Below are positions 748-64,000 of a stretch of 64,000 nucleotides of DNA, in pieces; the first letter of the stretch is position 1; every line of letters starts with the position of its first letter. Origin of the DNA: Chiloscyllium plagiosum (taxonomy: Eukaryota); NCBI RefSeq assembly GCF_004010195.1, contig NC_057718.1, positions 66,411,351 to 66,475,350 of the forward strand. Reading direction: 5' to 3'. Under the pieces are notes generated by a model. That model worked only from the letters and a program-made list of their open reading frames with translations, was not told the DNA's origin and did not search any database. A program made the translations under genes and the position numbers.

Positions 748-968
748 AGGAGAAAGTGAGGTCTGCAGATGCTGGAGATCAGAGATGGAAATGTGTTGCT
801 GGAAAAGCGCAGCAGGTCAGGCAGCATCTAGGGAACAGGAGAATCGACATTTCGGGCATTAGCCCTTCTTCAGGAACATTCCTGAAGAAGGGCTAATGCC
901 CGAAACGTCGATTCTCCGGTTCCCTAGATGCTGCCTGACCTGCTGCGCTTTTCCAGCAACACATTTCC
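748..968. mobile_element. Palindromic Penelope-like element terminal (pLTR) insertion, family A, with a hammerhead motif
   Basis: 91-bp inverted arms (786-876 and 879-969) with 2 mismatches and a 2-nt spacer. Direct repeat attattgcttgttg at 734-747 and 969-982. The same sequence family caps PLE bodies at 56470 and 63690. Confidence 0.8.
878..913 (+). ncRNA. Minimal type-I hammerhead ribozyme motif (predicted cleavage after C909)
   Basis: CUGAAGA (882-888), extra A, GGGC-UAAU-GCCC stem II, GAAA (902-905), CG, UC. Stem III is palindromic and loopless, as in PLE minimal hammerheads. Stem I is weak. Confidence 0.7.
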
Positions 969-2019
969 ATTATTGCTTGTTGTTGACCTCATTAACTATC
1001 ACCTTATATGCAGCCTCCTATTTAACTCTCACCACAAAGAAAATAAACATTGACAGATTCTCGACAAGAAAGTCAGAGCAGGAATCTGATAACTCCAGCT
1101 TGTCACTTGCTCCTTCACTCTATCTTGGACACCTTGTACCAGCATCTCCACGAATACTCGATGGGCTGTGGTTGCACGTGTTCCCCATCCACGAGCACTG
1201 GCATCTGACATCTGCCAACCTCTTGGAAGTCTCATGGTGTCTCTCTGATCCACTTCCTGGACACACCAACTTCTAAAAGCTGCTGTATGGAGGACACTGG
1301 CAAAGAACATTGCAATGCAGTGACATGTATCCACCTCTCTGTGGACAGGCTGCACACTCGCTGTCTTGATGCTCAATGTCTTTGCATCAGCCTACATGCT
1401 GTCAGCATCATTGCCATGCCTTGCGTCTTAGCATAGTCTCAAAGCCAGGCAGTTTGTCTTGCTGGTCAATAGGACAGATATAATGCACATCACTGTGCTA
1501 CATCAATCTGTCATCCTCCTCGTGTGCCAGCAGCTTGCTTGGTAAACAGATTGCATGTACTGCAAGTGTCAGTCCATGAGTTCCAGCACAGTAAGTCAAG
1601 AACGTTCTCTCCAATTAGTACAGGAATTAGCTGTTGTCAGGTGTCCAGTTGGAGTGTTCTTAGTGTGCGTCTGGAGTTTGGGCTGGGAGACATGGTCAGT
1701 TCATTTGGCTGCATAACAGACCTGGGGAGTAACACTAAAAGAGCTGGGGAGATTCTCTGTCTGGGGCTGTCTGGTTAGGTCACCTAAGGTGGTGGGCCAC
1801 TGCCAATCTGTTGAATCATCCAGCAAAAGCCAGGGGGAATGATGGAACAAAGGAGGCCACTGCTGTGGAAAAGAGATGAGGAACCCAGTACATAAAATCA
1901 CGTTCTATTATTTGGAACTATCTTCAGGAAGTCCCAAGTGAATGATACGTTTCTGCCTCTTCCTGTGGTATCCTGCATCATGAATGCTAATCTTCAGTCA
2001 ATTTACTTCACACGATTTT

Positions 2020-2375
2020 AAAAAATGGTCAAAGGTACTAGATGCTACAAAGACTATGGATCTTAATGGCATTCTGCCAGCAGTGCTGAAGAATGGCTAC
2101 AAATGTGGCTAATTCTGGAGCACAAACTACAACTTTAGCATCTACCCAATAATGTGAAAAATTACCCAGTTATGCACTGTTCACAAAAAAGCTGGATAAA
2201 TTCAATCTAGCCAGTTACCACCTAATCAGTCTACTCTCAATCATCAGCAAAGTGATGGGAGGGATTGTCAACTGTGGTAGCAAGTGACCCGTTTCTTGCC
2301 AGGAATTTGTTCATTGCATGGTTTGGGCTCTGTTAGGATGACTCAGCATCTGGGATGATTACAGCCTTTGTCTAA
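2020..2375 (+). mobile_element. Decayed CR1/L2-group LINE RT fragment
   Basis: 'aatctagccagttaccacctaatcagtctactctcaatcatcagcaaagtgatgg' is an NYRPISLLS..SKVME-like RT N-terminal motif. Confidence 0.6.
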
Positions 2376-2559
2376 ATGTGGTAGAAATTATCATGAAAGA
2401 GAAAATAAAATGTACTTATGACAGATGTCGAATAGGAAGTCCAACTAAAAGTCGGATTGAATATAAAAGGTTCAAAGCGGAGGAAGAGCAAATCAGGGAA
2501 GCCAGCAGCAAGTATGCAAACAACTGGCAGCTAACTTATAAGAAATTGTCAAACTCTTC

Positions 2560-4110
2560 TTCATTAAGTAGTAAAAAAAAAAGTGCGTGTGGCTGAAGTA
2601 TGAAATAAATATCACCTTATTGAACAAAGATGATGATGGTCATGGTGAAAGAGGTGGAAATGTCTCTAGTAGGGTTTGATTTTAAGCAGGTGTTGATATT
2701 GGATAAGGTTGTCTGTACTTAAAGTTGACAGGAGACTGGATGCGATTCATCCAAGGATACTGAGGGAAGTGAGAGTGGAAATTGTGGAGGCACTAGCAAT
2801 AATTTTTTCAGTCTTCCTTGGACATGGGTGGTTTCAGACAACTGGAGAATTGCAAATATTGCTCAAAAATAAGTGCAAGGACTCAACTTACCTGTTTAAC
2901 TTTGGTGGGAAAACCATTTAGAAACAACTAGAAACAATTCTGAACAAAAAAAAGTAGTCACGTGTACCAATACAGGTTAATTAAGGAGTGTCAGTATGAA
3001 TTTCTTACAGGAAAATCAGGTGTAACTAGTTTGGTTGCACTTTTTTGAAAAGGTTACAAAAGAGATTCATTAGTGCAATTAATTGATATGGTGGAAACTG
3101 AGTAATTGCAATTGTTAATGGATGCTTTTCAATTTGGAAATAAGTTTCTGTTACTTCCCCGAGGATTCAAATTAGGACTCTTGCTTTTCCTAATATTAAT
3201 GATTGGACATTTGTGTGCTGGTCCCAATTTCAAAGTTTGCAGATAATATGCAACTTTGAAGGTGGAAGCTTTTTAAACTGTGAAAAGGATAGACAATAGA
3301 CACATTAGAGAGGTGGCAGATGAAGTTTAACATGGGGATGTGTGAATTGATGCATTTTAGAAGGAAGACCATGGAGAGAATATAAAACCAAGTGTACAAC
3401 TGCAGCAGCAGAAGGACCATCTTCTGTTGTACTTGATATGACTCCAACCAATGAACCTTGCCCCAGTTCCCATTGACTTCAGTTTCTCCATGATTTCTTG
3501 ATATCACATGAAGTCAAATGTGACCTAATGTGGCAGGACAAATTGGGAAAGCAGGAAAGCTTAAAGTATCTTAAGTTTTTACAACCGGGAAATAGAATAC
3601 AAGAGTATGGGTATGTTGAACTTGTGCAAACAGTCCAGCCTCAGTTGGAATATAGTCAGGTTCTAGGCACTTTGGAAAGAATGAGAAAGAATCAAAGAGA
3701 CTGTGCAAGAGATTTACAAATTTGTTTCCAGACTGAAACTTCAGTAAAGAAGGTAGTCCCAATTCTCCAATCTTTTCCCACTTGGAGGAGAGAAAGCTAT
3801 GAGGAGATTTGATTGAAGTATTCAAAATCTGTAGAGTTTGGAACAGTAAACTGTGTTAAAATGTTTGCACTCATGAAAGGACTGTGATTGAGTGGGCACA
3901 GACTTCAAGTAATTAGTGAATGAAACTGAAGTTGATATCAGGAAAATGCTTTGCCATGAATTGATCAGTTTGGGTCTGGAATGAATTGCTTGAAAGTAGT
4001 GGAAGTGTATTCAATTGAGACATTCAGTAGGGAATATGACAGTTATTTGAAAGGAACAACATGCAGGAAAAAAACATAAGAAAGACACTAGGTTAAAAAT
4101 AAAACTCATT
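2560..4110 (+). mobile_element. Decayed CR1 LINE ORF2/3' fragment
   Basis: Remnants 'DAIHPRILREVRVEIVEALAIIF', 'SKFAD' and 'VQPQLEY', with many indels. Confidence 0.75.
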
Positions 4111-4504
4111 TGGACAGCTGCTTCTATTACAAATGACCAAATGCTGCTTCCTGCACTTTGAGCTATGTAATTTTTGGACAAGGAACTACCCTTGAGGTGA
4201 GAGGAAAGTAACTACCCTCAACATTAGTCCGCATTTGACTTAATGTGCTATCAGGAAGCCAGGAGGAAACTAAAGTTGGTTGGAGTCCGACCGAGCACAA
4301 AGATGTTTGTAGTGGTTGGAGGTCAATCTGTGGGCATTGCAGAATTTCTTCAGGGTAGTGACTAAGATTGAATCATCTTTAGCTGTTTCATAGACAACCA
4401 TCATAATGTCAGACATGGGGATGTTCACCTGATAATTGCGCAATATTCTGTCTCATTTGTGACTGCTCAGAAACTGATATAGTGCATGACTCTGAGCGAA
4501 ACTT

Positions 4505-5430
4505 AAGACCACAAGAAATAGGAGCAGGAGCAGGCCTTTCAGCCCCACAAACCTGCATTGCCATTCATTAGGCTTATGGCTGATCCCACATTCCACATGT
4601 CTACTTTCCTTTGTTTTCCCTGTAATCTCTAACTACTTCTTATCAAGAATCAGTCTATCTTAGCCTTAAATATACACAAGGACACTACTCTCATAGCTTT
4701 CTGTGGCAGGGAGTTCCAAAGGCGTTCAGCCATCATAGATGAAATTCTTAATCTTGAATTAGTGCCCCTTTATTCTGAGACTATGCTGGACTCTCTCATG
4801 AGGGGAAACCATCCTCTCAACATTTACCCTGTTAAGTCCCTTAAGAAGCCGATATGTTTCAATAAGATCGCCTCTCATTTTTTTAACCTCTAGTGAGTAG
4901 AGTCCCAGCCTAATTAGTCTTTGTTCATATGACAATCTCTCCATACCAGGAATCATCCTAGTGAACCTTCTCTGAACCTCCTCCAATGGAATAGTATCTT
5001 TCTGTAAATAAGGGGACCAAAACTGCTTACAATATTTCAGGATGTGGTCTCAGCAGTACCTCAAACAGTCACCGTAAGACTTGTCTACTCTTTATAGTTC
5101 AATCCTCTCGAAATAAGGGCCAACATTCCATTAGCATTGCTGATTACTGCTGCACATGTATGCTAGCTTTGTGTTTTATATACAAGTACCCCTAAATTGC
5201 TTTGTGTTACAACTTTCTGCAATTTTTCTCCATTTAAATAATATTCTGTTCTTTTGCTCTCCTTTCCAAAATTAACAGCTTCACATTTTGCCACATTATA
5301 CTCCATTTGCCAACACTTTGCCCTCTTAATCTATCAATATCTCTCTGTAAACTGTATGCCTCACTACCTTACTTTCCACATTTTTGTGTCTGTAAATTTG
5401 GCTCACTCTCTACCACCAATTCACTATCTA
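4505..5430 (-). mobile_element. CR1 LINE 3' fragment
   Basis: ORF 4759-4986 'VQRRFTRMIPGMERLSYEQRLIRLGLYSLE..RGDLIETY' is the CR1 ORF2 C-terminus. 3' tail near 4505. Confidence 0.9.
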
Positions 5431-8089
5431 CAAGATGCACTACATTAACTCACTCAAACTTCTTTAGTGATCTCTGTCATTTTAAACAATAAAGAACACC
5501 ACTGCTTGCAAGATCTCCTAAAAGCTGAATAACTTGGAACAATGTCACAGATTCTTCAATGTCAGTCAAAATTCTGCAACTCCTTTAACTAAAATTCTGT
5601 ACCTCCAAAACATGCACTGCAGTGGTTCAAAAAGCAGGCTTATCTCCACCTTTTGGGGGGAAATTAGGATTGGGCAACATATGTCCCAGCCATTATTGCT
5701 CATTCCCGTGAAAGAATTTAATGCAAAACTTTGACAGTCCTTATTCAACCAGAAATGTCATGCAGACCTTTTTTTCATTGAAGTACAGACTTTCTAAATA
5801 ATTTTCTTGTGTGAACAAAACGTTATGAGTCCTGATATCAGACAAGAACTCAGCACTGTACTCTGCTGTCACATATGTAGTTTTTTCCATCACTAATGCC
5901 ATTTTTGGGCATTTGGAGTCTGTGGAAGCCTTGTCACCCACTCGTTGCTTCCTGTTCACAGGTCCACACCTGACTGCAGCACTCCTAACTACTTGCCATT
6001 CTGCTCATCTTACTGCCCCATTCTCAACCCACTTGCCTTCCAGTCAGTGCCCAGCTCTGACTCCTCTCGTTATCCATCTCACCATTATGCATACTGAAGC
6101 AGCAAGAGTTTGGAGCAGAGTGAGTTTATGTGAGTTCTTCATATTTTAAAATTGTACATAAATCTCTTGATTTTGTAGTGGTTGTAATGAAGTCCAACCA
6201 TTGACGTTTCATTTTTAATACCATGCAACTCCTCCACTGCCCAAAGAAAGGCAAAACTAATTTTGCAGCCTTCTCCTCAGCCATAGGGTAGATTTCTTTT
6301 CTTCACTATAAAGTATTTAGTCTCCCTTTTATCTGTTGATTCAAAATTGGTCACTATTTTCCATACAAAGTTTGAATTTAGCATTAATAGTATTTACAGA
6401 ACACACATTTGAAAATGATAGTATTAATTTTAAAAACAATAACCCGATTAGACAGGGTCTGGATTGATTTTGTCAATCTATTTCAAATCTTCCAGCATTG
6501 TAAAAAAGAAAAATTTGTTTAATTGTTACGTGCATTACTACATACCAATAGTCAACCAGTGAGATGGAGGCATTAATTCTTAATTAGGTAATCATTACCA
6601 ACTAACTTGACATTTTGACTCTTCTGACTTTTAAATGGTATACTTAACAAATGGATTATTGTTGAGGTGTTGATTGCTAAGTGTACATTGATTTAGCAAA
6701 ATCCTGAGGTTCTTAAACAACTAAACAGTTCAAGGCTATAATGGTAAACTATCTTCTATTTCTGGCACATCTTTTCAGCCAGTGCGTTCATGGTTATAAT
6801 GCTACTTTATAATTTTGTTCTGGAAAGGATAGTCTGAATGTAACGAAAGCACAATAGGTAACAGATGCTTTAATTCAGCTCTATGCCTTAAATTTAAGTA
6901 TAAAAGTTGGTGCAAATTTCAGTTTTTCTGGTAAGTTGACATATTTGATTCTTACGTTGATGGCAGTTAATGATGTGCCAGTATTAACACTAAACTAATT
7001 TCTTTATCTCCTCCAATTTCTCCTCGCCTTCCTGCCACCCCATTCGCACCTAAACAGAAATATGTACTGCAGAATGTGCAATCTAAATGTAAATTACAGA
7101 TTTCCATTTAATTGAAACAGGACCATCCGTAAGATGGCCCTTTCTGTGCATAATTACCTCCTTGCATTCCATGAATGTTCAAAATTTTATATTTAAAAAA
7201 AAAGCACTGGTAACTTGAGTAAAAATAAAGTCAGCAACAGTAATTATTTCAAGTGCAAGATTACTATTGTTCAGAACTCTGATATACTTGATAAACTGTT
7301 ATTCTTAGTATCATGCTGATATTCAGCTACAAGTTAAATGTTTTTGCCATGTTTCTGTAACTGCTGCTGTAATTACTTTAGATTTTTGAGTGCAATGTCA
7401 ATCCGGTCTATGTTCCCTTACAGTTACTATTGACCTGCAATATTTTTGATGAGTTGAGGGAGCTGACATATCATCTGTACTTTGTGAATACATGCAGCAA
7501 AAGAACATTTCAGTTGTTTTGCAAATTACCAAATACGTTTAGTAATAATATTCACAAGATTTCCTTTGTAATATGCATGACTCCCCACACATCCCCAGAC
7601 AGTTTCATCACATGGATTACCTGTTTACACTCCTTTCTATCCCTACTAAAAAATGTTAGAATTGTCCCCAGTATGTCCCCTTACTCAGTGTTTTATAGGA
7701 ACTTGAAACACTATGCATATGTTTAATTTTCAAAAGCAGTCTTTTATTTCTCCATGATGTGTTATGTGGTTTGCCCCTTACATTCTCCTGTCTGTAAGCA
7801 TATTAAAGAAGGGTCTAAAATGAAGTTGAAGTAATTTTTGTTTTGCATATTTCATTTAGCTTTTGAGTTGCAGAATTTCTGAATGTTATATCTTTGAAAA
7901 TTTGGGCCTGTAGTTCCAATGTGATTTTGAAAATAATCTAGGGGTGGATGTTTTTTTCAAAAACAAGATAGACATTTTAAGCAGTGCTCAATTTACAGCT
8001 TCCAACATGAATGGCACTTTTATATGATTTTAGTGATTTTTGGAATCACTTTTTTTTTCAAACTAATAATACCGAAGCAGAAAGTGAAA

Positions 8090-8615
8090 TATAGAGTAAA
8101 ATATCCTTTATTGTCACACTTGCTCCATTATACAAGTAGAGTGAAAGGTTTTACAATGTCTGTCTCTTAGGTTCTTATACCTAAGATGGCGCCATAAGTA
8201 CAAATCTAGGATACAAAAGAGGAGTAAAAAGTAGTTGCACTGCTTTACAGACTTTAAAGAATAAGTTAGAAGTAAGACCTTGCTGGTAAACATTACATTG
8301 TATCAGCTCAGCACAGGGCCTCCACACGTGGTCTGATCTCCCGCACCAGACCCCAGTCTAATAGCCATCCCTGCTCTACTCCAAGCCTCCAGTCTGCTCT
8401 GTACCGGCACTCAGCTGCTCCAAGGTAAGTTCCAGGACTGCTTCCCCCATGCTGGTCTCTGCCCAGGGCTCTCTCCACCATGTGCTGCTCCGGGGTTCAT
8501 TGCCTGTGCCTGCTGCTGCTCCAGGATTTGCCTCTGGGGCTAAGGGGAGAGAAAAAGAGAGAGAGAAAAAGAACAGGCAGAGACCACAGGAGCTCTGGCA
8601 GCCATCTTGCCGCAA
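8090..8615 (-). mobile_element. Short non-coding retroposon with Rex1/Babar-like ends (tentative)
   Basis: The minus strand starts 'gcggcaagatggctgcc' and ends 'gtgacaataaagg' followed by a short-repeat tail. No coding capacity. Confidence 0.4.
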
Positions 8616-8929
8616 AATAGCTGATCAGACTGTAATTTTTATTTGGTAACTCTGAAATACTTTGATCAAACGTGAATATGGGTTTGTAACAAATGTGGGT
8701 TGGTAGAGCATGTGAGAGTGGTGACAATATGACTTTGTCACATTTAGGAAGGAGTCTTAAGGGAAAAATTCTTCTTTATGCATATAATACAGAACTGTTA
8801 CCATGTTACAAGAATTAATTGTCAATGTGTAGTAATAAGTGTGGAGTAAACAGTCCCAATTCATCCAGTCTTGCCTTAGTGAGCTATCTATTCAGTCATT
8901 GCATCCAGACAGTGAAACATTTCATCTTG

Positions 8930-11900
8930 TTTATATATTTTTTATTAAAACATTTTAAAAAATATTACAACAAATCCAAAACTAGACAATTCAAAATGGT
9001 ACAAAGAAAAAGCACAGAACTACATTTATGTATAAATACGTATAGATTATGTATACATATGTTTTAAAAAAAGGACCCACTAAATACATAATAACTAACA
9101 GCTAGACACTAACTAACAGCTTGGTGAGACAAAACAATAGCTCTCAACCATCGAGAGCATTAATTTATATGTATTCATATGTTTGTAATTTTTCCTCTTT
9201 GGGTATTAGATTCATTTAAACAATCGTTACGGCTATATAAAAATCCTTATTAATGTGGCAGACAAATCTGTGCCCAGATAATCCAAAAAGGGCCACCGCA
9301 TCTTATAGAAATTCTGCTTTATGGTGCACCGGACTTGTAAGATAATCTAAAGGGATGTGCTCCATGACTAGCTTACGCCAGTCCGACAACCCTGGAGGAC
9401 TTTCTGACACCCACCCTAACAGAATATCCGGTCTCGCACAAAAAGTAAGGATACTGAAAAGCTTTTTTTTTGTGCGTATCTAAAGGATGTACATTAGCCA
9501 GGTCAAGAAGAGGAGATACTTTCTGTCCTCGAGACCCCTTCTATTTCACCTACCACTGCGCTCCAGTGAGTGAGAGCACCTGTACTCATTTTGCACTTGG
9601 ACATATGAAAGATACTCCCACTTTAAATTTTGAGACATGATCTGGAGCTAAGTGGACCCTGTGGAGAAGCTTAAATTGCAAAGCATGGGGGTCCTATTGC
9701 AAATTGAGATGCTTCTTGCATTTTCCCAGATATCTTCCCATGTCTCAGAGGAGATCTCATCACCCAGCTCTCCCTCCCATGCCTTACAAAGCCACTCAGT
9801 CTCGTTCAAGGAGCCCTCTCACAACAGGTGATAAGGAGTGCTGACAGAAAGTGTGTTCTTAGCACTAAGCACTCTCTTCTCTGTGTCAGATCTATAGGAG
9901 TCAGTTAGAAATGTAGTTCTTTAAATGAAGTCCCTGGTTTGAAAAAAAAAGGAAGAGGTCCCTGCTAGGTGATTCGTATTTCTGAGCTAACTGGTCAAAA
10001 GCCATCAGTGTGTCCCCCTCAAATAGGTCACCTAGGCAAGACACCCCTAGCTGCCCAAAGTTTAAACCCTGAGTCCATCATCCCTAGTTGAAAACCCAGC
10101 ATATGTATGGATGTAAGAAATTATGATTTGGCAATATTGCCCTCCATGCTTCAACAGTATCGATAATTATTGGTTATGGCAATATTCCTTAACTGCCCTC
10201 ATTTTGTCCAAGAACAATAGTAAAGGGGCACCCTGCCTGAGAAGCTTCGATGTCTAACTATGGTGAGAGCGGGTCCCCACAGGCCCAGTCTCTCTCGTAA
10301 GGTAACAAAGAGTTTTTAATAGTTTTTAATAGTTTTTAGTATCTGGAAGGTGCACTCCTCCCAGTCTGTGGGATAGCTAATTTAATAAGGGGTCACTTCC
10401 TCAATGCCAGATGAAAGAACTGAACCAACTGTTCAGTCTCTTGAATATTTGCCTATTAAAGATCAAAGGGAGCATTCGCATAGGGTACAATAGGCGGGAG
10501 AGAATATTCATTTTAAAGAGTGCTATCTGACCTAACCAAGAAATCGGAAGCACCTCCCATCTTTGAAGGTCTTGTTTGATTTTGGCAAATAAATGGACAT
10601 AATCAGCTTTAAATAGCCGATCAAACACTGGAATAATGAATATACCTAAGTAAAGAAAATCCCCCTGTGACCAGTTAAAGAGAAATTGAGATTTGCCCTT
10701 GAGACCAGGTATTTTTGGGAGACCACCCATAGGCATGGCGTCCGATTTCGTAAAGTTAATCTCGTAACCGAAAAAATGCCAAACAAATTGATGTATTGTA
10801 TCAGAAGAGATACCAAAACTATTGGGTTTGACAAAAAGATAAGAACATAATTTGCATACAATGTGATCTTATGTGACTTTGTCCCCGCTTCTGGAGCAGA
10901 TAAATTGGGATGCCTACTTATTGCCTCTGCCAGTGGCTTAATCACCAATGTAAAACGTCCTGTTGACTGCCCCTAAGGATATTGAAATTGCTAAACCGCA
11001 CACCATTGGTGAGAACCGCACACCATTGATGAGGACCGCAGCAAGAGGGTCACTATAAAGAACTTTTACCCATCTGGTAAAGGCTTCACCCAAATCAAAC
11101 CGCTCCAAAGTATAAAAGAAAGAATGGCCACTCGACCCAATCAGAATCCTTTTCTGCATCTAGAGAGATCACTAATACCTGTACAGATTGTTGACATGCT
11201 TGGATCACATTGAGTAACCTCCTGACGTTGTTCGATGATCTGTGGCCCTTTATGAAGCCCACCTGGTCCTCCTCAATAATGGAAGGCAATACAGTTTCTA
11301 GCTGTAGTGCAAGAGTCTTGGGATTTTGAAATCAGCATTCAAAAGTGAGATAGGTCTATAGGAAGCACAATCATCTGGGGGCTTCCCCTTTTTAAGAATG
11401 CGAGATATTAGCATCTCTTAAAGATGGCGAGAGGAGGCCATGACTGTGCAAATCATTGAACAAACTAAGCATCGATCCTGACTGTATGTTGATAAATTCC
11501 TTAAAATTCACTGGGAGGTCTGTCAGGATCAGGCACCTTTTCACTTTTGGAGCTGCCTCCCAGCCTACTGCACCTCTTGCACTGACAATGGGACATGAAG
11601 GAAAGACTCTTGTTCAGGGGTTGCACCTGGGGATCCAGATTCCTGAAAAAAGGCTCCATCCTAACCCACCCATTCTCGCAACTTTCAGACTAGTATAATT
11701 CAGGGTAAAATCTCTGAAAGGCCACATTGATCCTTTTTGAATCACAGCTCTTTCCCTGATCAAGGTGATGGCTTGAGGGGCACTCCTTTTTCCTGGCAAG
11801 ATAAGCTAAGTACTTGCCTGGTTTATCACCATGATCAAACAACCTTTGTTTTGCAAAAGTAAGCCCTTTCTTAGCTGTCCATGTGAGCATGGAGTTCAGT

Positions 11901-17248: not shown

Positions 17249-18020
17249 AAAAAGTGAAAATTGTTGGAGAATCTCAGCAGGTCTGGCAGCATCTATGGAT
17301 TGAAAGCAAAGTCAACGTTTTGGATCTAGTGACCCTTCTGCAGAACTGATTGTGGCTAACAAGGCGACATATGAAGGAACCTCGATTATCTGAAGGAAAC
17401 GAATACCAGCATTCAGTTAATCAAATTCCAGATAATTGAATGCCGGATAACATAGTTTAGCTGAGCATCGGGATCTTGCGATTTTGCTGGATAATCTAAT
17501 ATTCGGAAAATCAAATTCCAAATAATTGAGGTTCCTCTCTTATGTACCGAAGATTGGGGTGAGGAGGGTATGGGGTGAGGGGAAGGAGTAAAAGGTTGAT
17601 GGAGATGGAGCCCAGAGAGAGAACAGATAAAAGGAACAGATAATGGTGAGCCAAGCAGAGAGAAAAGCTGCTCATGGGGACTATTGGGTGAAAATGAATT
17701 AGCTGTGAATAAAGCAGCCCATGTGATGACAAGGCCTGGGGAGTAGGAGTGGGTAAAGGACATGGAAGAACGTGCTCAAGCCCTAAAATTGTTGAACTCT
17801 GTATCGACTTCTAAGGACTGTAGGATTCCCAAGTAAAAAATGAAATGTTCTTCTGGCTCTCACTGAGCCTCACTGGTACACGGCAGCAGGCCTGAGAAAC
17901 GTGTTGGCCAGGCAATTGGAAGTTCAGGGTCATTTTTGAGAACAGAGTGCGAGGTCTGCATTTAGTCTCCCCAGTGTAGATGAAACCATATTGTGAGCAG
18001 TGAATGCAATAGACTAGGTT
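17249..18020 (-). mobile_element. Penelope-like element 3' portion: GIY-YIG endonuclease remnant plus family B pLTR with a hammerhead motif
   Basis: Minus strand 'CIHCSQYGFIYTGETKCR' (GIY-YIG). Terminal 'agttctgcagaagggtcactagatccaaaacgttgact' is a degenerate hammerhead. Confidence 0.8.
17372..17540. mobile_element. Tigger/pogo-type MITE nested in the Penelope-like element
   Basis: TIRs aggaacctcgattat / ataattgaggttcct with TA flanks. Same TIR family as 48065-48221. Confidence 0.75.
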
Positions 18021-24938: not shown

Positions 24939-25088
24939 TCGGAGCAGGAGAATCGATGTTTCGGGAAAAAACCCTCTTGTGTGAAATGTTGATTCTCCTG
25001 ATCCTTGGATCCTGTCAGACCAGCTGTGCTTTTCCAGCACCACACTCTTGACTCTGATCGCCAGAATCTGCAGTCCTCACTTTCTCCT
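24939..25088 (+). mobile_element. PLE pLTR family A insertion with a short inverted 5' segment
   Basis: TSD agatttttca at 24929-24938 and 25089-25098. 'caggagaatcgatgtttc' is inverted relative to 'gaaatgttgattctcctg'. Confidence 0.75.
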
Positions 25089-35559: not shown

Positions 35560-35925
35560 TCGGTTATCTCAGTTAGTTTGATGGCTGGTTTGCAAAGCAG
35601 TGTGATGGAGGAGAAAGTGAGGACTGCAGATGCTGGAGATCAGAGCTGAAAATGTATTGCTGGAAAAGCACAGCACGTCAGGCAGCATCCAAGGAACAGG
35701 AGAATCGACATTTCGGGCATAAGCCCTTCTTCAGGAAATTTCTTCAGGAAAGCAATGTGATGCCAGTGTTCAGTTTCCACACTGGCTGAAGTTACTATGA
35801 AGGACTGCCCATTTCAACCTATGTCCTCGCATGGTGACCCTCTGATTAAACCACCACCAATTGTCTCTCTAATGATTGAACAACTTTGTGGTCCATTAGG
35901 ACTATAGTGACTTTATCTTACCTAC
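35560..35925 (+). mobile_element. tRNA-derived SINE (same family as 32215) interrupted by a PLE pLTR
   Basis: Head 'ggttatctcagttagtttgatggctggtttgc' and tail 'ggactatagtgactttatcttacct'. Confidence 0.65.
35608..35748 (-). mobile_element. PLE pLTR family A insertion with a hammerhead motif
   Basis: TSD aaagcagtgtgatg / aaagcaatgtgatg (35594-35607 and 35749-35762). Minus strand 'ctgaagaagggcttatgcccgaaatgtc'. Confidence 0.8.
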
Positions 35926-38900: not shown

Positions 38901-39960
38901 TACTCGTTCTGCCTTCTGGGTTCCAACCTAACTCCCAGTATTCACTTTTCAGGTCTTTCTCCCTTTCCCTACTTATGTCATTGGTACCGATGTGTACCAC
39001 AACTTCTGGCTGCTCTCCCTCCTCCTTAAGAATTCTGTAGATGTGATCAGAGACTCCCTGACCCTGGCACCTGGGAGGCAACGCACCATCTGGGAGTTTT
39101 GCTCTCGACTACAGAATTTCCTAGGCAGAAGTGGCCATTCCTGATGAAGTGCTTTTGCCTGAAATGTTGATTTTTTTCCTGCCTCTCAGATGCTGCCTGA
39201 CCTTCCGTGCTTTTCCAGCACCACTCTAATCTTGACACAGAATCTCCTGTCTGTTCCTGTCACAATTGAATTTTCTATCACTATTGCTCTCCTATTCTCT
39301 CCCCTTCCCTTCTAAGCCACAGAGCCATGCTCAGCGCCAGAAACCTGGCTGCTGTGGCTTTCCCCTGGTAGGACCTCCCAACAGTATCCAAAATAGTATG
39401 CTTATTATTGAGGGGAGCGGCCACAGGGGCTCCCTGCATAGTCTACCTATTACCTTTCCCCTTGTGACAGTCACCCAGCTACCTTTTGTCCTGTAACTTA
39501 GGTGTGCTCCCAATAAGTCCTCTCTATCACAACCTCTGCCTCCCAAATTGTCCGAAGTTCATCCATCTCTGGTTCTCGTTCCCCTAACCTGGTCTGTGAG
39601 GAGCTGGAGTTGGGTGTGCTTCTCACAGGCAAAGTCAGCAGGGGTGCCAGTGGTGACCCTTACGTCTCACATCCTGCAAGAAGAGCATACAACTGCCCTA
39701 GCCTCCATCCCCTCTGCCCTAAATTATCAAGAAAGATTGAATAAATGAAAAAAAAACTTACCAATTCTCCAAACACTGTCTTTTTTTTGGTTAGAGGAGC
39801 AGGACTGTGGCTTGTTTAGCCACAGTGCGCAAACATCAGTTCACATGCCCAGCAATCTCCATGCCCATGTACCCTCCTGTTGAGCCTTCAGTTCATGAGG
39901 TAAGTCTTTAAGAGGAAAACTTCACCTTCCTGACAGCTCCCTGGTCCTCAATGTCACCGC
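35985..39960 (-). mobile_element. Near full-length decayed CR1 LINE: ORF1 (zinc finger plus SGNH esterase) and ORF2 (EN-RT)
   Basis: ORF1 'VCSSCRM' and 'EQPEVVVHIGTNDI..SRVVISGLLPVP'. ORF2 'TRGEAILDLVFG' and 'VRPHLKYCVQFW'. Confidence 0.92.
39123..39236 (+). mobile_element. PLE pLTR family A insertion inside CR1 ORF1
   Basis: TSD acagaatttcct / acagaatctcct (39111-39122 and 39237-39248). 'ctgatgaagtgcttttgcctgaaatgtt' is a degenerate hammerhead. Confidence 0.8.
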
Positions 39961-44500: not shown

Positions 44501-44519
44501 CCCCATGAAACTCTATAAT

Positions 44520-46635: not shown

Positions 46636-46785
46636 AAACAAGCATGGAAATTGTTAGAGAAATTTAGCGAGTCTGGCAGCATCTGTGGAAAGAGAAAAAT
46701 CAAGTTTGAACTTAAAAATAACTTTGTTCCTCTCTTCACAGATACTGCCAGACCTTCTGAGTTTCTTCAGCATTTCCTTTTGTTC
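46636..46785. mobile_element. Decayed palindromic PLE pLTR (family B)
   Basis: Inverted arms 'gtctggcagcatctgtggaaagag' and 'ctcttcacagatactgccagac'. Confidence 0.7.
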
Positions 46786-48064
46786 CACAACACCCTCTGT
46801 CACTTCCTCCTTTCCTGAAAACGTTTTTATCTTTTATTTAGACATATGCCCTCTCTGTGTGGTGTTAATTTCTCAACTTGTGTCTTTGGTTGATCTGTTC
46901 TCTTTGTGAGTTCTAGGAATCTAACCTAACTGCATGGTTTTGGCTTCCCATAGTGTCCCTTGTCTCAACTTTTTATTTAAATTTTTGGAATTTCATCACG
47001 TCAGTTTGGTGAGGTGATATGTAAAATAAGCTGGTCCTGATGACGTGATAAAGATCCTTTTGTTGACTCCAGTGTCATTGTGGTGTAGCTTTGCTGAGAA
47101 ACCACCAGTGTACTAAGCACAGATTACCATCATTTATTAAATTGTACACAGACAGTTTGAGACTTTACTCTGAAAAGCCACAAGTGCTTATTTCTTTTAT
47201 ACATCTAAAGTAATGTATACATACCCTTGCTCAACTTTAAACTTGTCAACTACCAATTGCATGTAACAGACATCTGTTTACTTAGCTCCTGTGGTACATG
47301 TATCAAGTATTGTTCTTATCCTAGGTCTCCCATTTCGCAATGATTATGCAGTCCAGGCTGCCTCCTTATTTTTAAATCACCAACTCCCTAGCAAGGCCCT
47401 TTGTTGTAGTCTGTGTTTATCCTGTCTAATGTACATCTGTGAATCACTTTATGTTCTGTCTCTTCCTGATCAATTACCAAAAAAGGTCATAAGACTACCT
47501 CTGTTATGTTGTGACGATGACTCCTAATAAGAATGTTATTTAGTAATGATTGTTTGTCCAGTTTCAAATTGTCTACTATGCATTATTTTTGAAGGATGAA
47601 TGTTCTCAAACTGATTAGTATCCATATCCCTGATAGAAAATGCTGTAACAATTTGCATGCACATTTTACACATTTGGAAATCAGCCTAGTATGTTGCTAT
47701 TCTACTTTCCAGGGAAAAACAATCTCTACAGCTAGGTCATAGTTGATTTGCTGTTTCTTTTCTTTCATCCTTTCCTGTACTTCATGATTCCTTTCTCCAG
47801 TGATTTCTACTGTCTGCTGCTTCTGAGCTGATTTATTTCATTCTCGCGTTTCAATTCTGCAGGTGAGTGTTTGGAGAGCATGAATGTTTGTGAGATCCCA
47901 TTGCTTTGCTGCCTGCATGAGTGAGAATGCCTAGTTAACTTCCCTTCATAAAAAGATCAGTGTTATGATGGAGATTTGAAACATTATGTTGTTTTTTTTT
48001 GCACTGAGCAAATTAGCTGAGAAAACAAATCAAATTGCATTAATTTTGAATTAATTACTGATTA

Positions 48065-48221
48065 CAGAGGAACCTCAATTATCCGACATTCGATTAACCG
48101 AATTTCGGATTATCTGAATAAGGTCACAAGGTCCAGATGCTTGGCTAACTGTTATCCAACGTTTGATTAACCGAATGAAGTACTCCTTGCCTGTCCCCTT
48201 CGGATAATCAAGGTTCCTCTG
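48065..48221. mobile_element. Tigger/pogo-type MITE (157 bp)
   Basis: TIRs cagaggaacctcaattatccga / tcggataatcaaggttcctctg. TA duplication at 48063-64 and 48222-23. Internal attaaccgaa repeats. Confidence 0.9.
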
Positions 48222-50134: not shown

Positions 50135-50495
50135 GGGGACACGGTGGCATTGTGGTTATTTCACTAGACTAGAAATCGAAGGGTGTTAGTATTCTGGAAT
50201 TGTAAACTAGCCTCTTTAATGATGACCATGACACTATCATTGTCGATTGTGTGGTGCTGGAAAAACACAGTAAGTCAGGCAGCATCCGAACAGTAGGAGA
50301 ATAGAGGTTTCAGGCATAAGCCCTTCATCAAGAATGACACAATCTTTGTTTGTTATGAATATCCAGGTTTCACTAATGCATTTTAGTGAAGAAAGTCTGC
50401 TGTTCTGACCTTAACTCTTTAATTTAGTTCAAGCTTAATTAGGGATGGACAACAAATATTGGCCTTGCCTTGACATCCACATCCCATGAAAAATG
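50135..50495 (+). mobile_element. tRNA-derived shark SINE with a nested PLE pLTR fragment (about 50250-50335, minus strand)
   Basis: Head 'cacggtggcattgtggttatttcactagactag' and tail 'agggatggacaacaaatattggcc..cacatcccatgaa'. The insert is flanked by atgacac repeats. Confidence 0.7.
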
Positions 50496-51208: not shown

Positions 51209-51466
51209 TCATGATTTGGAGATACCGGTGTTGGACTGGGGCATACAAAGTTAAAATTCACACAACACCAGGTTATAGTCCAACAGGTTTAATTGAAAGC
51301 ACGCTAGCTTTTGGTGCGTCACTCCTTCATTAGGTGGTAATGGAGGGCTCATTCCTAGGATTGAGCCCTCCACTACCATCTGATGAAGGAGCGACACTGC
51401 GAAAGCTAGTGTGCTTCCAATTAAATCTGTTGGACTATAACCTGGTGTTGTGATTTTTAACTTTGT
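51209..51466. mobile_element. Palindromic PLE pLTR insertion, family C, with a hammerhead motif
   Basis: Arms of about 110 bp (51245-51356 and 51357-51466) centred on cct|agg. The + arm reads cat-CUGAUGA-A-ggagcgacacugc-GAAA-GC-UA-gug. Confidence 0.8.
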
Positions 51467-56385: not shown

Positions 56386-56466
56386 GAGTCTGCAAGGGTG
56401 AATGCATGAATGATGGCAGTATTCTTAGCCTCTGATCTGCTGTTGTAGCCACTGTATTTATGAATG

Positions 56467-57465
56467 AAAAAGTGTGGTGCTAGAAAAGCACAGCAGGTCA
56501 GACAGCATCCGACGATCAGGAGAGGAGACATTTCGGGCATAAGCTCTTCTTCAGGAATGCGGAGGAGGAAGGGGGCTGAGAGATACACAGGAGGGTGTGG
56601 GTAGGGCTGTGGGGAAGGTAGGTTATTTTGGTGATCAGTGGATGCAGGTAAGAGGTGATTATGGTACGTCGGAGGGGAGGGTGGAGTGGATAGGCGGGAA
56701 GGAAGATGGACAGATCAAGAGGACGATGCCGAGTTGGAGGGTTGGATCTCGATGGTGCAAGGGGAGATTTGGAAACTAGTGAAGTCAATGTTGATATCGT
56801 GTGGTTGTAGGTTCCAAGGTTGACAATGAGGCATTCTTCCTCCAGTTGGCAGGTGGCTTTGATTTGGCTGTGGAAGAGGTCCAAGATTTGCATGTCCTTG
56901 GGGGAGTGTTAGGGGAAATTGAAGTGATTGGCCACAGGGCGGCACGGTGGCACAGTGGTTAGCACTGCTGCCTCACAGCGCCAGAGACCCGGGTTCAATT
57001 CCCGCCTCAGGCGACTGACTGTGTGGAGTTTGCACGTTCTCCCCGTGTCTGCGTGGGTTTCCTCCGGGTGCTCCGGTTTCCTCCCACAGTCCAAAGATGT
57101 GCAGGTGAGGTGAATTGGCCATGCTAAATTGTCCGTAGTGTTAGTTAGGGGGTAAATGTAGGGGTATGGGTGGGTTGCGCTTCGGCGGGTCGGTGTGGAC
57201 TTGTTGGGCCGAAGGGCCTGTTTCCACACTGTAAAGTAATCTAACCTAATCTAAGGGCAGTGGAGTTGTTTGGTGTGTGTGGACCAGAGATGTTTCCTGA
57301 ACCACTGTGTGAGTTGGCATCCCAGATATAGAAGAGACCACATCGGGCTTATATGCGAAACTCTGACTCTCCTGCTCCTTGGATGTTGCCCAGCCTGCTA
57401 TGTTTTTCCAGCACCACACTTTTTGACTCTGACTCTCCAGCTTCTGCAGTCTTCACTTTTTCCTA
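56467..57465 (-). mobile_element. Penelope-like element fragment with inverted pLTRs (about 56470-56557 minus, about 57355-57465 plus), interrupted by HE1
   Basis: GIY-YIG C-terminal remnant 'PVANHFN..MQILDL..QLEEECLIVNLGT'. Family A pLTR at both ends in opposite orientation. Confidence 0.8.
56937..57254 (+). mobile_element. Young full-length HE1 V-SINE
   Basis: A box tggcacagtgg (56948-56958), B box ggttcaattcc (56992-57002), CpG-rich V-domain and (taatc)n tail. Confidence 0.95.
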
Positions 57466-57714
57466 TCCACTACTTATGTATGGCAAGTTCAGTTGAGTTG
57501 CTGGTCAATGGTAATCCCAGGATGTTCAGTGATAGTAACAACATTGAACGCCAAGGAGCGATGGTTAGATTGCTTCTTATTGGAGGTGCTGGCATTTGTG
57601 TAATGTGAATGTTACATGCTGTTTGTCAGCCAAGTCTGAATATTGTCCAGGTCTTGCTGCATTTAGGCATGGAGTGCTTCAGTATCTAAGGAGTCTGACC
57701 TTATGGGGATGGAA

Positions 57715-58165
57715 CCCAAAGTGAGAGAAGAATAGTTAGGACAGACAAAGGAGTGGATAACAATCTGGCTAGGAGAGTGAATAGCTGTTAATGGAGACTG
57801 TTAGTGGCTAACAATCAGTTGTGTGTAATGACATTCTGTGATCCTGTGTGTGCGGTTGGGGGCTGGGACATAAGAGTTCAAGCCCAAAATTTATTGAACT
57901 CGATATTTAAGTCCTGAAGGTTGCAGGGTCTCTTTGGGCTCTGTTCCTACGTATCCTTTAATCTTTAACCCCTTCCTCCCAACCCTCTCTTTTGCACGTA
58001 AACTGACATTTTCCTACATACAATCAATTCTGAGGCAGGGTCACCAGATCTGAAACATTAACTCTGATTTTTCTTCAGATGCTGCCAGACCTGCTGAGCT
58101 TTTCCAACAACTTCTGTGTTTGTTTTGATTTACAGCATCTGCAGTTCTTTTGGTTTTTGTTTGGT
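57715..58165. mobile_element. PLE family B terminal fragment with an internal inversion
   Basis: A minus-strand PLE 3' region is followed by a plus-strand pLTR 'ttctgaggcagggtcaccagatctgaaacattaactc..gcatctgcag'. Confidence 0.65.
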
Positions 58166-58397: not shown

Positions 58398-59765
58398 AGA
58401 GTCATAGAGATGTACAGCATGGAAACAGACCCTTCAGTCCAACTTGTCCATACCAACCAGATATTTTTTAGATTAGATTACTTAGTGTGGAAACCTTCGG
58501 CCCAACAAGTCCACACTGACCCGCCGAAGCGCACCCACCCTGACCCATTCCCCTACATTTACCCCTGCACCTAACACTACGGGCAATTTAGCATGGCCAA
58601 TTCACCTAACCTGCACATTTTTTTTGGACTGTGGGAAGAAACCGGAGCACCCGAAGGAAACCCACGCAGACGCTGGGAGAATGTGCAAACTCCACACAGA
58701 CAGTCACCTGAGGTGGGAATTGAACCTGGGTCTCTGGCGTTGTGAGGCTGTGAGGCAGCAGTGCTAACCATTGTGCCACCTTGCCGCCCACCGTGGCCCA
58801 GTGGCAGCACCTGGCCCATATCCCTCAAAATCCTTCTTATTCATATACCCATCCAGATGCCTTTTAACTGTTGCAATTGTACCAGCCTCCACCATTTCAT
58901 CTGCCAGACCATTGCACACATGTACCACCCTCTACATGAAAAGGTTACCCCTTAGGTCTCTTTTATATCTTTCCCCCCTCACCCTAAATCTATGTATTCT
59001 AGTGGCCTCCCCCACCCCAGGGAAAAGACCTTGTCTATTTACCCTATCCATGCTCCTCATAATTTTATAAACTTCTATGAGGTCACCCCTCAGCCTCCGA
59101 TGCTCCAGGGAAAACAGCCCCAGCCTATTCAACCTCTCCCGATAGCTCAAATCCTCTAACCCTGGCAATATCCTTGTAAATCTTCTCTGGACGCTTTCAG
59201 GTTTCATAACATCTTTCCGATAGGAAGGAAACCAGAATTACATGCAATGTTCCAAAAGTGGCCTAACCAATGTCCTGTACAGCTGCAACATGATCTCCCA
59301 ACTCCTAAATTCAGTACTCTGAGCAATTAGGGAAAGTATACCAAACGCCGTCTTCACTATCCTATCTACCTGCAACTCCAAGGTCTCTTTGTTTAGCAAC
59401 ATTCCCTAGGACCTTACCATTAAGTGTATAAGTCCTGCTAAGATTTGCTTTCCCAAAATGCAGACCTCACATTTATCTGAATTAAACTCCATCTGCCTGT
59501 CCTCAGTCCATTGGCCCATCTGATCAAGATCCCATTGTAATCCGAGGTAACCTTCTTCGCTGTCCACTACACCTTCCAATTTTGGTGTTATCTGCAAACT
59601 TACGAACTATACCTCTTATGCTCACATCCAAATCCAAAACATAAATGACAAAAAGTAGTGGACCCAGCACCAATCCTTGTGGCATTCCATGGGTCACAGG
59701 CCTCCAGTCTGAAAAACAACCCTCCACCACCACCCTCTGTCTTCTACCTTTTGAGCCAGTTCTGT
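58398..59765 (-). mobile_element. CR1 LINE 3' portion with a nested HE1 (58468-58789, minus strand)
   Basis: 'GMPQGLVLGPLLFVIYV', 'KFADNTK' and 'VQRRFTRILPGL'. Confidence 0.92.
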
Positions 59766-61383: not shown

Positions 61384-61386
<3 letters not shown>

Positions 61387-61414: not shown

Positions 61415-61418
<4 letters not shown>

Positions 61419-61424
61419 GTGCAG

Positions 61425-62155: not shown

Positions 62156-62294
62156 GATGGGACTTCATGCACTGATTTCTTCATACAAATGAGCACACTC
62201 AAGAAATGTTTGTGCGGTACTTTAACAACTTAAGTAAAAGGGAAATGTTAATGTTTCACTTACTTACTTAAAGCTGCAGTTCACACAATTTAGT

Positions 62295-63690
62295 TAGAGG
62301 AAAAAATACTGCAGTGGCTAGAAGAACACAGCAAGTCAAGCGGCATCAAGAGATAGAGAAGTCAATTTTTGGGTACAACCATTCTTCAGGACTGGTGATG
62401 GGGGGGTGAGGGGAGTTGCAGATAAAGGGGGTAGGGCATGAGGGTTTTGGGTGGGGAAAGAGGTGGAGTAGCGAGGTAGTGATAGGTAAACACAGATAGC
62501 TGGTACAATGTGGTTGGTTGATTGGAAGGAAGGAAGGGTCAGTAAGTGGACTGGAAGGGAGCGGGAGGGGCTGGAAAGGGAGTCAGGGATGGGAAGGGAG
62601 GTTATTTGAAATTGGAGAACTCCATGAACCTCTGTCTCACCTGGAAGAACTATTTGGGGCCTTGGATGGAGGTGAGGGAATGATGTGCTGGCAGGTTTTG
62701 CACCAGGAAGGAAATGTACCAGAGTGGTGGGGAGAGTGGTGCGAACCACGGTAGGGGCCCTTGTGAAAGGCAGAGGGGATGGAGAGGGGGAGATGTTCTT
62801 GGTGGTGAGGTCTGGTTGGAATTGGCAGAAGTGTTTAACAATGATACGTTGGATGCAGAGACTGGTTGGGGTACAAGGTGAGGACAAAGGGGACCCTGTC
62901 ATTATTATATTTGGAAGGGGGTGGGGTTTAGAGCAGTGGAGCATGAAATGGAGAGGCAGTGGAGGGCTGTCTGGATGATGGAGGGGGAAAGCACATTGTT
63001 CAAAATAGGTGGACATCTGGGATGCTTGGGAGTGGAATGTCTCCTTGTCCAAACAGATGAAATGGAAGAATTGGGAAAACAGGATGGAGTTCTTGGAGGA
63101 TAATGGGTGGGAAGAGGTGTAGTTTTTAGATTAGATTAGATTAGATTAGATTACTTACAGTGTGGAAACAGGCCCTTCGGCCCAACAAGTCCACACCGAC
63201 CCGCCGAAGCGCAACCCACCCATACCCCTACCTTTACCCCTTTAACCTAACACTACGGGCAATTTAGCATGGCCAATTCACCTGACCCGCACATCTTTGG
63301 ACTGTGGGAGGAAACCGGAGCACCCGGAGGAAACCCACGCAGACACGGGGAGAATGTGCAAACTCCACACAGTCAGTCGCCTGAGTCGGGAATTGAACCC
63401 GCTGTGAGGCAGCTGTGAGGCAGCAGTGCTAACCACTGGGCCACCGTGCCCTGCTGGTAGTGGTAGTCTGGTTCTGGTAGTTGTGGGAGTCTGAGAGTTT
63501 ATAATAAATGTATGTCTGTAGACTGTCACCAGAGATGGAAACAAAGAGGTCAAGAAAGGGGAGGGAGGTGTCCGAAATTGACTATGTGAATTTAAAGGCA
63601 GGGTGGAAGTTGTTGACAAAGTCAATGAACTGCTCTAGTTCAACCTGGGTGCAGGATGCAGCACTGACACCATCATTGACGTACATAATC
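62295..63690 (-). mobile_element. Penelope-like element: RT C-terminus, thumb, GIY-YIG remnants and pLTR, interrupted by HE1
   Basis: Minus strand 'YVNDGVSAASCTQVELEQFIDFVNNFHPAFKFT..SLPFLDL..IYYKLSDSHNY', 'SQFFH', 'FHSQASQM'. Confidence 0.85.
63126..63451 (-). mobile_element. Young HE1 V-SINE
   Basis: (ttaga)n tail, V-domain and tRNA-like head. Confidence 0.95.
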
Positions 63691-63691
63691 T

Positions 63692-64000
63692 TGGCGAAAG
63701 TGAGGACTGCAGATGCTGGAGATTAGAATCGAAAGTGTGGTGCTGGAAGGCAAAAGCCTGATGAAGGGCCTTTGCCCAAAAAGTCGATTCTCCTGCTCCT
63801 CGGATGCTGCCTGACCTGCACATGATTTAGTCTACTGCATTCGCTGCACTCAATGTGGTCTCAATAACATTGGGGAAATAAAGTGTAGATTGGGTGACCA
63901 CATTGCAGAACACCTACATTCTGACTTTAAAAGATCCTGTGCTTCCAGTTGCCTGTCACTTCACCGCACCACCCTCTTGCCTGGCCAACACCTCTGTCAA
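63692..64000 (+). mobile_element. Inverted PLE pLTR pieces (family A) followed by a plus-strand GIY-YIG fragment running off the window
   Basis: 'ctgatgaagggcctttgcccaaaaagtc' is a degenerate hammerhead. Downstream 'LVYCIRCTQCGLNNIGEIKCRLGDHIAEHL'. Confidence 0.8.

What the first reader, a model, noticed from the sequence alone, without database searches (positions are those of the whole stretch)
748..63820. Three distinct hammerhead-bearing PLE-terminus families, about ten copies in 64 kb, many inserted alone with their own TSDs
Seen: family A (ctgaWgaagggc..gcccgaaacgtc) at 748, 24939, 35608, 39123, 50250, 56470/57355 and 63692. Family B (ctgaagaagggtc..gacccgaaacgtt-like) at 17249, 46636 and 58029. 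Family C (ctgatgaaggag..gaaagcta) at 51209. The flanking sequences are dissimilar but the core layout is shared: an extra A after CUGANGA, different stem II pairs, and a palindromic ACGU or AGCU stem III. Four family A copies of about 110-220 bp have 10-14-bp TSDs and no coding sequence, and two (748 and 35608) end at the same point (gaggagaaagtgagg). Inference: this may be a very high-copy non-autonomous ribozyme-processed retroposon population (retrozyme/SINE-like) mobilised by PLE proteins, rather than only random truncations.
Basis: partly seen in the sequence, partly recalled or inferred. Interest (0 to 1): 0.7.

Follow-up and report, generated by a model that had tools for sequence, protein, structure and literature searches.

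The report
Hammerhead-headed Penelope retroelement end stubs
The window holds a dozen end-pieces of Penelope-like jumping genes, many starting just before a small, mostly decayed hammerhead ribozyme motif and none at its predicted cut site; they are likely dead-end short copies of the parent elements rather than a separate ribozyme-processed mobile family.

Summary
They are terminal repeats (pLTRs) of Penelope-like elements (PLEs); the closest proteins come from sharks and rays. Seven of 12 loci are solo, five touch RT or endonuclease remains, and all five family A solos have 10-14 bp TSDs. Only the two arms at 748 pass a strict minimal-hammerhead descriptor; 24939 and 46636 lack CUGANGA.

The shared end of 748 and 35608 is the known PLE 'tail': 9 of 11 family A arms end at two sites about 37 nt apart, body-attached ones included. 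The retrozyme reading fails its tests: 0 of 11 arms begin within 5 nt of the cut site, and there are no head-to-tail arrays.

Likely mechanism: RT starts at two fixed sites and runs off the 5' end of uncleaved element RNA (inferred). The read lay was confounded for 5' ends and could not test discrete RNAs. The scan noted this kind before on other DNA of this genome.

The parts
748..968 (.). Family A head-to-head palindrome: long-tailed arm on - (748-876), short arm on + (877-968); arms 98% complementary; min-HHR C3 at 882(+) and 873(-), predicted cut after 909(+); TSD 734-747 / 969-982
17249..18020 (-). Family B pLTR (17249-17350; core with two substitutions) attached to 3' UTR and GIY-YIG remains, interrupted by a small inverted-repeat element at about 17365-17540
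24939..25088 (+). Family A solo, long end, short fold-back arm, CUGANGA lost; TSD 10 bp exact
35608..35748 (-). Family A solo, long end, begins at -3; 13-nt direct repeat of its first bases; TSD 14 bp with one mismatch
39122..39236 (+). Family A variant solo, short end, homology begins at -5 behind 13-14 unassigned bases; TSD 11 bp with one mismatch
46636..46790 (.). Family B palindrome with the centre (core) missing; no clear TSD found
50239..50333 (-). Family A solo, short end, begins at -5 (overlapping the TSD); core broken; TSD 11 bp with one mismatch
51209..51460 (.). Family C palindrome with a 36-nt tail on the left arm; arms 88% complementary; C3 at 51380(+); arms begin about 23 nt before the core; possible 8-11 bp TSD
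56468..57466 (.). One inverted unit: short-ended family A arm on - (56468-56560), 3' UTR and endonuclease C-terminus on - (to about 57345, SINE inserted about 56940-57245), long-ended arm on + (57345-57466) beginning at stem II
57690..58150 (.). Family B pLTR on + (58025-58150, long end, core decayed) with upstream 3' UTR and a probable inverted body piece on - (57690-57935)
   Evidence: weak: E 0.008 and reading by eye
62317..63695 (-).
63692..64000 (.). Family A long tail on - (63692-63748), arm on + from -1 to +61 (63757-63820), joined to GIY-YIG remains on + that run to the window end

Best explanation
These are terminal repeats of endonuclease-bearing Penelope-like retrotransposons, inserted as 90-250 bp stubs that keep both sides of the predicted hammerhead cut site, likely because the element's protein starts reverse transcription at two fixed sites downstream of the ribozyme and likely runs off the 5' end of an uncleaved RNA that would begin at the ribozyme's first bases. 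Shown: PLE identity, TSDs, two 3' end sites about 37 nt apart, 5' ends clustered at -5 to -3 in family A, no ends at the cut. Taken from published work on another PLE (anole Poseidon, in vitro): two internal RT start sites make the tail, both target strands are nicked and extended, and uncleaved RNA is the substrate. Inferred: priming in the upstream pLTR of the transcript gives a short 'strong-stop-like' solo, and priming in the downstream pLTR gives a body-attached, 5'-truncated copy. Priming on both target strands, one start site each, gives the head-to-head palindrome with a tail at one end only. Inferred: the stubs are mostly dead ends.
For: PLE body: the ORF behind 62317 finds 10 proteins at E<=0.001; the 6 looked up are from whale shark, stingray and horn shark. 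P0008 shows RT motifs, a CX4CX2C linker and GIY-YIG and hits 63477-63695 (E 3e-23), 62711-63124, 63827-63925, 56759-56941 (E 2e-6) and 17818-18017 (E 2e-4). 3' ends: of 11 family A arms, 5 end at +124 to +126, 4 at +86 to +89 (two of these read by eye) and 2 elsewhere. The family C tail is 36 nt. A 30-40 nt tail and an inverted pLTR are standard (PMC8557442, PMC3846280) and match two RT start sites (PMC11167929). 5' ends: 4 of 7 independent breaks lie in one 5-nt window, approximate P 0.008 to 4e-5 for 100-600 nt uniform nulls. The stop lies at the far edge of the fold, after RT would have passed it, which favours a physical RNA end (inference). Positions -6 to -1 read YCAKTY (initiator consensus, recalled) in family B (17249), family D (62317) and the family A majority (56560 C>A in 59 of 64 and 34 of 40 RNA reads). 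The first bases of 35608 are repeated. The arms of 748 share variants absent from 35608 (98% versus 90-93%).
Against: No RNA 5' end was observed. The four bases at -4 to -1 are also the 5' strand of stem I, so the initiator match may be incidental. Family C arms begin about 23 nt upstream and do not fit. 5 of 11 family A arms begin elsewhere (+3, +8/10, +20, +69, in the body) and one at -1. In Drosophila virilis Penelope the start site lies 46 nt upstream of a 75-nt intron whose 3' end meets helix I, so a start at the ribozyme is not general. The window sample is small, and I left the centre-deleted loci 24939 and 63692 out of the P value. In one search depth collapses just upstream of the core (RNA 412 reads at 56545, 104 at 56560, 2 at 56566), but the reference's own 3' UTR is diverged and low in complexity, so this is not a clean test. 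The anole results are from another clade. pLTRs alone can mobilise sequence in trans (PMC3846280).
Confidence: 0.62

Rival explanations
1. Same PLE stubs, but the 5' cluster comes from RT pausing, folding back or being released at the hammerhead fold (or bound protein) on a longer RNA, not from a transcript start.
For: Three arms begin inside the core (+3, +8/10, +20). The sister arm of 57355 ran several hundred bases into the body. Family C begins at about -23. Self-priming at inverted junctions was proposed in PMC3846280.
Against: The main cluster lies at the exit side of the fold. The monomer fold is weak: in MFE folds of the family A arms only stem II forms. An initiator-like motif sits at the cluster in three families.
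Confidence: 0.2
2. A non-autonomous, SINE-like population: long-tailed solos or palindromes act as masters, are transcribed and are re-copied by PLE protein, without ribozyme cleavage.
For: 7 of 12 loci are solo. 748 and 35608 are a subfamily seen only as solos here (n=2). 39123 carries 13-14 unassigned 5' bases. pLTR depth exceeds the best body bin about 3-fold (X1), 7-fold (X5) and 6-fold (RNA X21) at the hammerhead bin. In-trans mobilisation by pLTRs is published.
Against: 748 and 35608 differ in build. The commonest genome-wide letters resemble the type seen in both solo and body-attached arms. The anole protein needs RNA to +172, beyond its main start at +111-118, and a stub would lack that stretch. 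No exact A/B-box motif was found.
Confidence: 0.13
3. Retrozyme-like family: the hammerhead cuts out unit-length RNAs, perhaps circular, which are reinserted.
For: The family majority has an intact core (56530 A>G in 262 of 308 and 165 of 193 RNA reads). Retrozymes related to pLTRs are reported in vertebrates, including one cartilaginous fish (10.64898/2026.07.22.740005).
Against: 0 of 11 arms begin within 5 nt of the cut, and none is permuted around it. No head-to-tail arrays. The motifs are minimal, not canonical type I. Palindromes put the two cores on opposite strands and are predicted to fold into one long hairpin that hides the core (-188 and -160 kcal/mol).
Confidence: 0.04
4. Plain random 5' truncation of autonomous PLEs.
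For: PLE copies are generally 5'-truncated; 5 of 12 loci keep body.
Against: 4 of 7 independent breaks fall in 5 nt (approximate P<=0.008).
Confidence: 0.01

Closest known systems
Minimal hammerheads (min-HHR) in pLTRs of metazoan PLEs (Cervera and De la Pena 2014, PMC4209133)
   Same: Extra base between positions 9 and 10.1, palindromic 15.2-16.2, short helix I, several families per genome, mostly single motifs tied to truncated PLEs, some pairs on opposite strands 100-700 bp apart.
   Different: Stem II is 4-5 bp here, against 7-8 in Schistosoma. Local density is 12 loci per 64 kb. The parts of that paper I read do not map copy ends against the ribozyme.
Insertion architecture of EN+ PLEs: pLTR, adjacent inverted copy, 30-40 bp tail (Arkhipova 2013 PMC3846280; Craig 2021 PMC8557442); Neptune/Nematis-type linker
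   Same: Inverted pLTR, tail on one end, TSDs of about 10 bp, RT-linker-GIY-YIG order.
   Different: Here many units are reduced to the pLTR alone yet keep TSDs; the solo pLTRs noted in the rotifer lacked TSDs.
Anole Poseidon PAc, internal RT initiation (Frangieh 2024, PMC11167929)
   Same: Two adjacent start sites give the tail, uncleaved RNA is copied, and both target strands are extended. Its main start is 111-118 nt past the start of stem II; the long end here is about 117 nt past stem II.
   Different: Different clade; no protein or RNA was tested here.
Animal non-LTR retrozymes (Cervera and De la Pena 2020, PMC7229834; Li et al. preprint 10.64898/2026.07.22.740005)
   Same: Hammerhead-bearing, non-coding, related to pLTRs, monomers dispersed.
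   Different: Defined by head-to-tail repeats with a type I hammerhead in each unit and by cleaved, circular RNAs. The window's units are single or head to head and end at tail sites, not at the cut.

Membership tests
EN+ Penelope-like element | RT followed by GIY-YIG endonuclease with CxxC between GIY and YIG | tested here: met
   tblastn of P0008 on the window. Pfam itself gave no informative hit on 8 decayed window fragments and only a weak RVT_1 hit on 1 of 9 relatives.
EN+ Penelope-like element | pLTR with inverted copy and 30-40 nt tail, TSDs | tested here: met
Neptune/Nematis clade | CX2-5CxxC linker between RT and EN | tested here: inconclusive
   Present in relative P0008; decayed in the window copy (one CxxC visible). 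No RT tree was built.
PLE minimal hammerhead | CUGANGA, extra base, stem II, GAAA, palindromic pair, UH, short stem I | tested here: met
   Strict descriptor: both arms of 748, 0 hits in 200 shuffles. Stems pair with different letters across families A-D (by eye). Most other copies are decayed.
PLE minimal hammerhead | self-cleavage, usually as a dimer | not testable with these tools
   needs an in vitro assay
Non-LTR retrozyme | head-to-tail tandem units each with a hammerhead | tested here: not met
   0 of 21 TRF rows has such a period; the window only
Non-LTR retrozyme | unit boundaries at, or permuted around, the cut site | tested here: not met
   0 of 11 family A arms
Non-LTR retrozyme | abundant unit-length linear and circular RNAs | tested here: inconclusive
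   Poly(A) single-cell reads cannot show them; no end pile-ups were listed.
SINE | Pol III internal promoter (A and B boxes) from tRNA, 5S or 7SL, and an A-rich or simple-repeat tail | tested here: not met
   No exact A-box, B-box or A6 in 11 family A arms (motifs recalled, exact match only)
SINE | copies descend from non-autonomous master copies (solo-specific subfamilies) | not testable with these tools
   no genome held; the window sample is too small

The most novel reading that the evidence does not exclude
In shark PLEs the transcript starts at the first base of the hammerhead, with an initiator overlapping stem I. Each RNA then yields a retrovirus-like 'strong-stop' cDNA that is itself inserted. 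Because such a stub would carry its own start signal, long-tailed stubs could be transcribed and re-copied, making a Pol II, ribozyme-headed SINE-like population that amplifies without the ribozyme ever cutting.
Probability: 0.13. Interest if true: 0.6.

Novelty: new member of a known kind. Interest (0 to 1): 0.3.

Why it matters
How PLEs build their pseudo-LTRs, tails and inverted ends, and what their hammerheads do, is still open. A genome with very many short stubs records both ends of each cDNA. If the 5' cluster is a transcript start, it would explain solo and palindromic pLTRs as run-off products of the two known RT start sites, and would suggest the ribozyme is not cut in the templates that insert. 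That is a useful, testable detail of a known element class, not a new system. Practically, these palindromes could be mistaken for MITEs or microRNA hairpins: Rfam gave sub-threshold miRNA hits at 46636.

Tried and rejected
- No whole genome is held, so the genome-wide end plot could not be made.
- Rfam: 5 weak matches, none a hammerhead.
- Metagenome scans: 0 matches for the core pattern; 48 loci for a 19-mer, whose longest alignments to family A were 28 nt or less, judged chance.
- Two word-index protein searches scored nothing. Pfam on window fragments was uninformative.
- Sequencing runs: no RNA holder was listed for 2000-9000.
- Read lay on 56430-56935: run X22 gave 0 reads and is no test. 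X21 gave 1661 of 12.96 million records on both strands (797 versus 562 at the peak) with no end pile-ups, but a poly(A) single-cell library cannot show 5' ends, cut ends or circles. Summed contig depth is no copy number and was used only as a rough ratio.
- Two automatic offsets were artefacts and were replaced by reading the sequence: 748R 5' at -19 ran into the mirror arm, and 39123 3' at +111 ran into the TSD.
- A two-strand fold of the core paired only the palindromic 3' part and is uninformative.
- Formal covariation statistics were not run: too few intact copies.
- MITE reading rejected: the arms are asymmetric (tail), and the same sequence is attached to RT/EN remains.
- A DPE at +28 to +32 did not match by eye (recalled consensus).
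- Lunse et al. on dimeric PLE hammerheads is not held; seen only as cited in PMC6765202.
- Literature searches listed no paper whose title or abstract start describes these shark stubs or their 5' clustering. Subscription papers and Repbase/Dfam entries were not searchable, so this is not proof of absence.
Full report
OBSERVATION. That makes 12 loci, 1780 of 64000 bases or 2.8%. In sense orientation the layout is stem I 5' strand, CUGANGA, an extra A, stem II, GAAA, a palindromic pair, UH, stem I 3' strand. Families A-D pair their stems with different letters (by eye), which supports the fold. A strict descriptor hits only the two arms of 748 (C3 at 882+ and 873-), against 0 hits in 200 approximate dinucleotide shuffles. 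The other copies are decayed: 24939 and 46636 lack CUGANGA, 57355 begins at stem II, and 50250, 63757, 17249 and 58029 have core changes. Reads from other copies show that the family A majority has the intact ACGU stem III (56530 A>G in 262 of 308 and 165 of 193 reads). Rfam lists no hammerhead at E<=1. All five family A solos have TSDs: 14 and 10 bp exact; 14, 11 and 11 bp with one mismatch.

IDENTITY. The ORF behind 62317 finds 10 proteins at E<=0.001. The six looked up are from whale shark, a stingray and a horn shark, so the host is likely an elasmobranch. P0008 shows RT motifs, a CX4CX2C linker and a GIY-YIG domain. Craig et al. (PMC8557442; passages) give such a linker for Neptune and Nematis but not Penelope/Poseidon; no tree was built. 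P0008 aligns to 63477-63695 (E 3e-23), 62711-63124 and 63827-63925, and its C-terminal part aligns to 56759-56941 and 17818-18017. So 56470/57355, 62317, 63692 and 17249 are attached to coding remains, and 58029 probably is (weak evidence). Seven of 12 loci are solo.

3' ENDS. Of 11 family A arms, five end at +124 to +126 from C3, four at +86 to +89 (50250 and 39123 read by eye) and two elsewhere. Both sites are used by solo and body-attached arms alike. The family C tail is 36 nt. A 30-40 nt tail on one end of an inverted pLTR pair is standard PLE anatomy (PMC8557442 and PMC3846280; passages). Frangieh et al. (PMC11167929; parts 1-2 of 4 read; three text supplements searched without hits, figures not seen) show for an anole element that the tail lies between two internal RT start sites. 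They also show that both target strands are nicked and extended, that ribozyme mutants insert normally, and that uncleaved RNA is the main substrate. The shared end of 748 and 35608 therefore says nothing about a separate family. In one search the loose ends at 56467-56471 in DNA contigs are a mix of tail and unrelated sequence (agreement 0.40-0.44), as two end sites would give.

5' ENDS. Five of 11 family A arms begin at -5 to -3 (748 both arms, 35608, 50250, 39123). One begins at -1, three inside the core (+3, +8/10, +20), one at +69, and one runs into the body. None begins within 5 nt of the predicted cut after +27. Counting 748 once, adding 62317, and leaving out the centre-deleted loci 24939 and 63692, 4 of 7 breaks fall in 5 nt. 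The approximate P is 0.008, 0.001 or 4e-5 for uniform nulls of 100, 200 or 600 nt. Positions -6 to -1 match the initiator consensus YCAKTY (recalled) in 17249, 62317 and the family A majority (56560 C>A in 59 of 64 and 34 of 40 reads). These bases also form stem I, and family C begins about 23 nt upstream, so the match is a lead only. In D. virilis the start lies upstream of an intron that ends at helix I (PMC2377424 passages; PMC4209133 parts 1-2 of 4). The read lay shows a collapse upstream of the core (RNA depth 412, 104 and 2 at 56545, 56560 and 56566). It also shows a 3- to 7-fold excess of the hammerhead bin over the best body bin in three runs. The reference's 3' UTR is diverged, however, and body bins differ among themselves by more than 100-fold, so this fits the cluster without proving it.

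MECHANISM. Shown: PLE identity, TSDs, two 3' sites, a 5' cluster, and an uncut motif in the copies that keep it. Inferred: the transcript has a pLTR at each end. Priming in the upstream one runs off after 90-130 nt and gives a solo; priming in the downstream one gives a body-attached copy. Priming on both target strands, one start site each, with the two cDNA ends then joined, gives the head-to-head palindrome with one tail. The arms of 748 are 98% alike and share variants absent from 35608 (90-93% alike), as expected if the mirror half is made at insertion; later conversion between arms is not excluded. Read-through of such palindromes is predicted to form one long hairpin that hides the core. 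The anole protein needs RNA to +172, beyond its main start site, so stubs are likely poor templates. Against that, pLTRs have moved unrelated DNA in a rotifer, so some re-copying stays possible.

COMPARISON. Min-HHRs occurring mostly as single motifs of truncated PLEs, some on opposite strands, are described in PMC4209133. Retrozymes are defined by head-to-tail repeats and cleaved, circular RNAs (PMC7229834, passages; preprint 10.64898/2026.07.22.740005, parts 1-3 of 5; its supplements are closed and may list cartilaginous-fish families). The window has no such array (0 of 21 TRF rows) and no end at the cut. No exact Pol III box was found. It works like an ordinary EN+ PLE insertion product and is not a member of the retrozyme or SINE classes on the features tested. 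Other papers seen: PMC8969392 and PMC6765202 (passages); all others as search listings only.

EARLIER NOTES. My run-off reading was written down before I saw the scan's notes. Those show the same kind of element reported from other windows of this genome (156 of 266 notes fit the words), several with the same 5' cluster. They are unchecked AI notes and are not counted as support.

VERDICT. Real and abundant, of a known kind. Interest 0.3.

Noticed in passing
window 62317-64000: The minus-strand body of 62317 skips most of the endonuclease (break near 62626). An endonuclease piece starting at about the skipped point lies on the plus strand from 63815, joined to the family A arm through a short shared stretch. 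Possibly one event with template switches, or a later rearrangement.
   Followed up: partly
window 57690-58150: The family B copy appears to have its upstream body inverted with little overlap, like an L1-type 5' inversion rather than a pLTR fold-back.
   Followed up: partly
window 35727-35751: 13-nt direct repeat of the first bases of the solo, as if copying reached the same end twice; a later local duplication is also possible.
   Followed up: partly
window 17365-17540 and 48061-48225: A small element with terminal inverted repeats (MITE-like); one copy sits in the 3' UTR of the 17249 PLE.
   Followed up: no
window 56940-57245, 58400-58790, 63125-63455: Copies of a ~300 bp SINE (HE1-like, name recalled), two of them inserted in PLE bodies.
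   Followed up: no
window 41262-42277 and 43844-44991: Long inverted repeat pairs with 700-1000 bp between the arms, unrelated to the hammerhead arms.
   Followed up: no
window about 19995-20254: A run of 250 N inside a CR1-like LINE fragment; further CR1-like and L1-like ORF remains at 10401-12465, 19465-21105 and 28534-29628 (names recalled).
   Followed up: no
window 46638-46785: The core-less family B palindrome gives sub-threshold Rfam microRNA-precursor matches (33 bits against a cut-off of 73), probably because it is a hairpin.
   Followed up: partly
window 39122-39135: 13-14 bases between the TSD and the start of pLTR homology have no assigned source.
   Followed up: no
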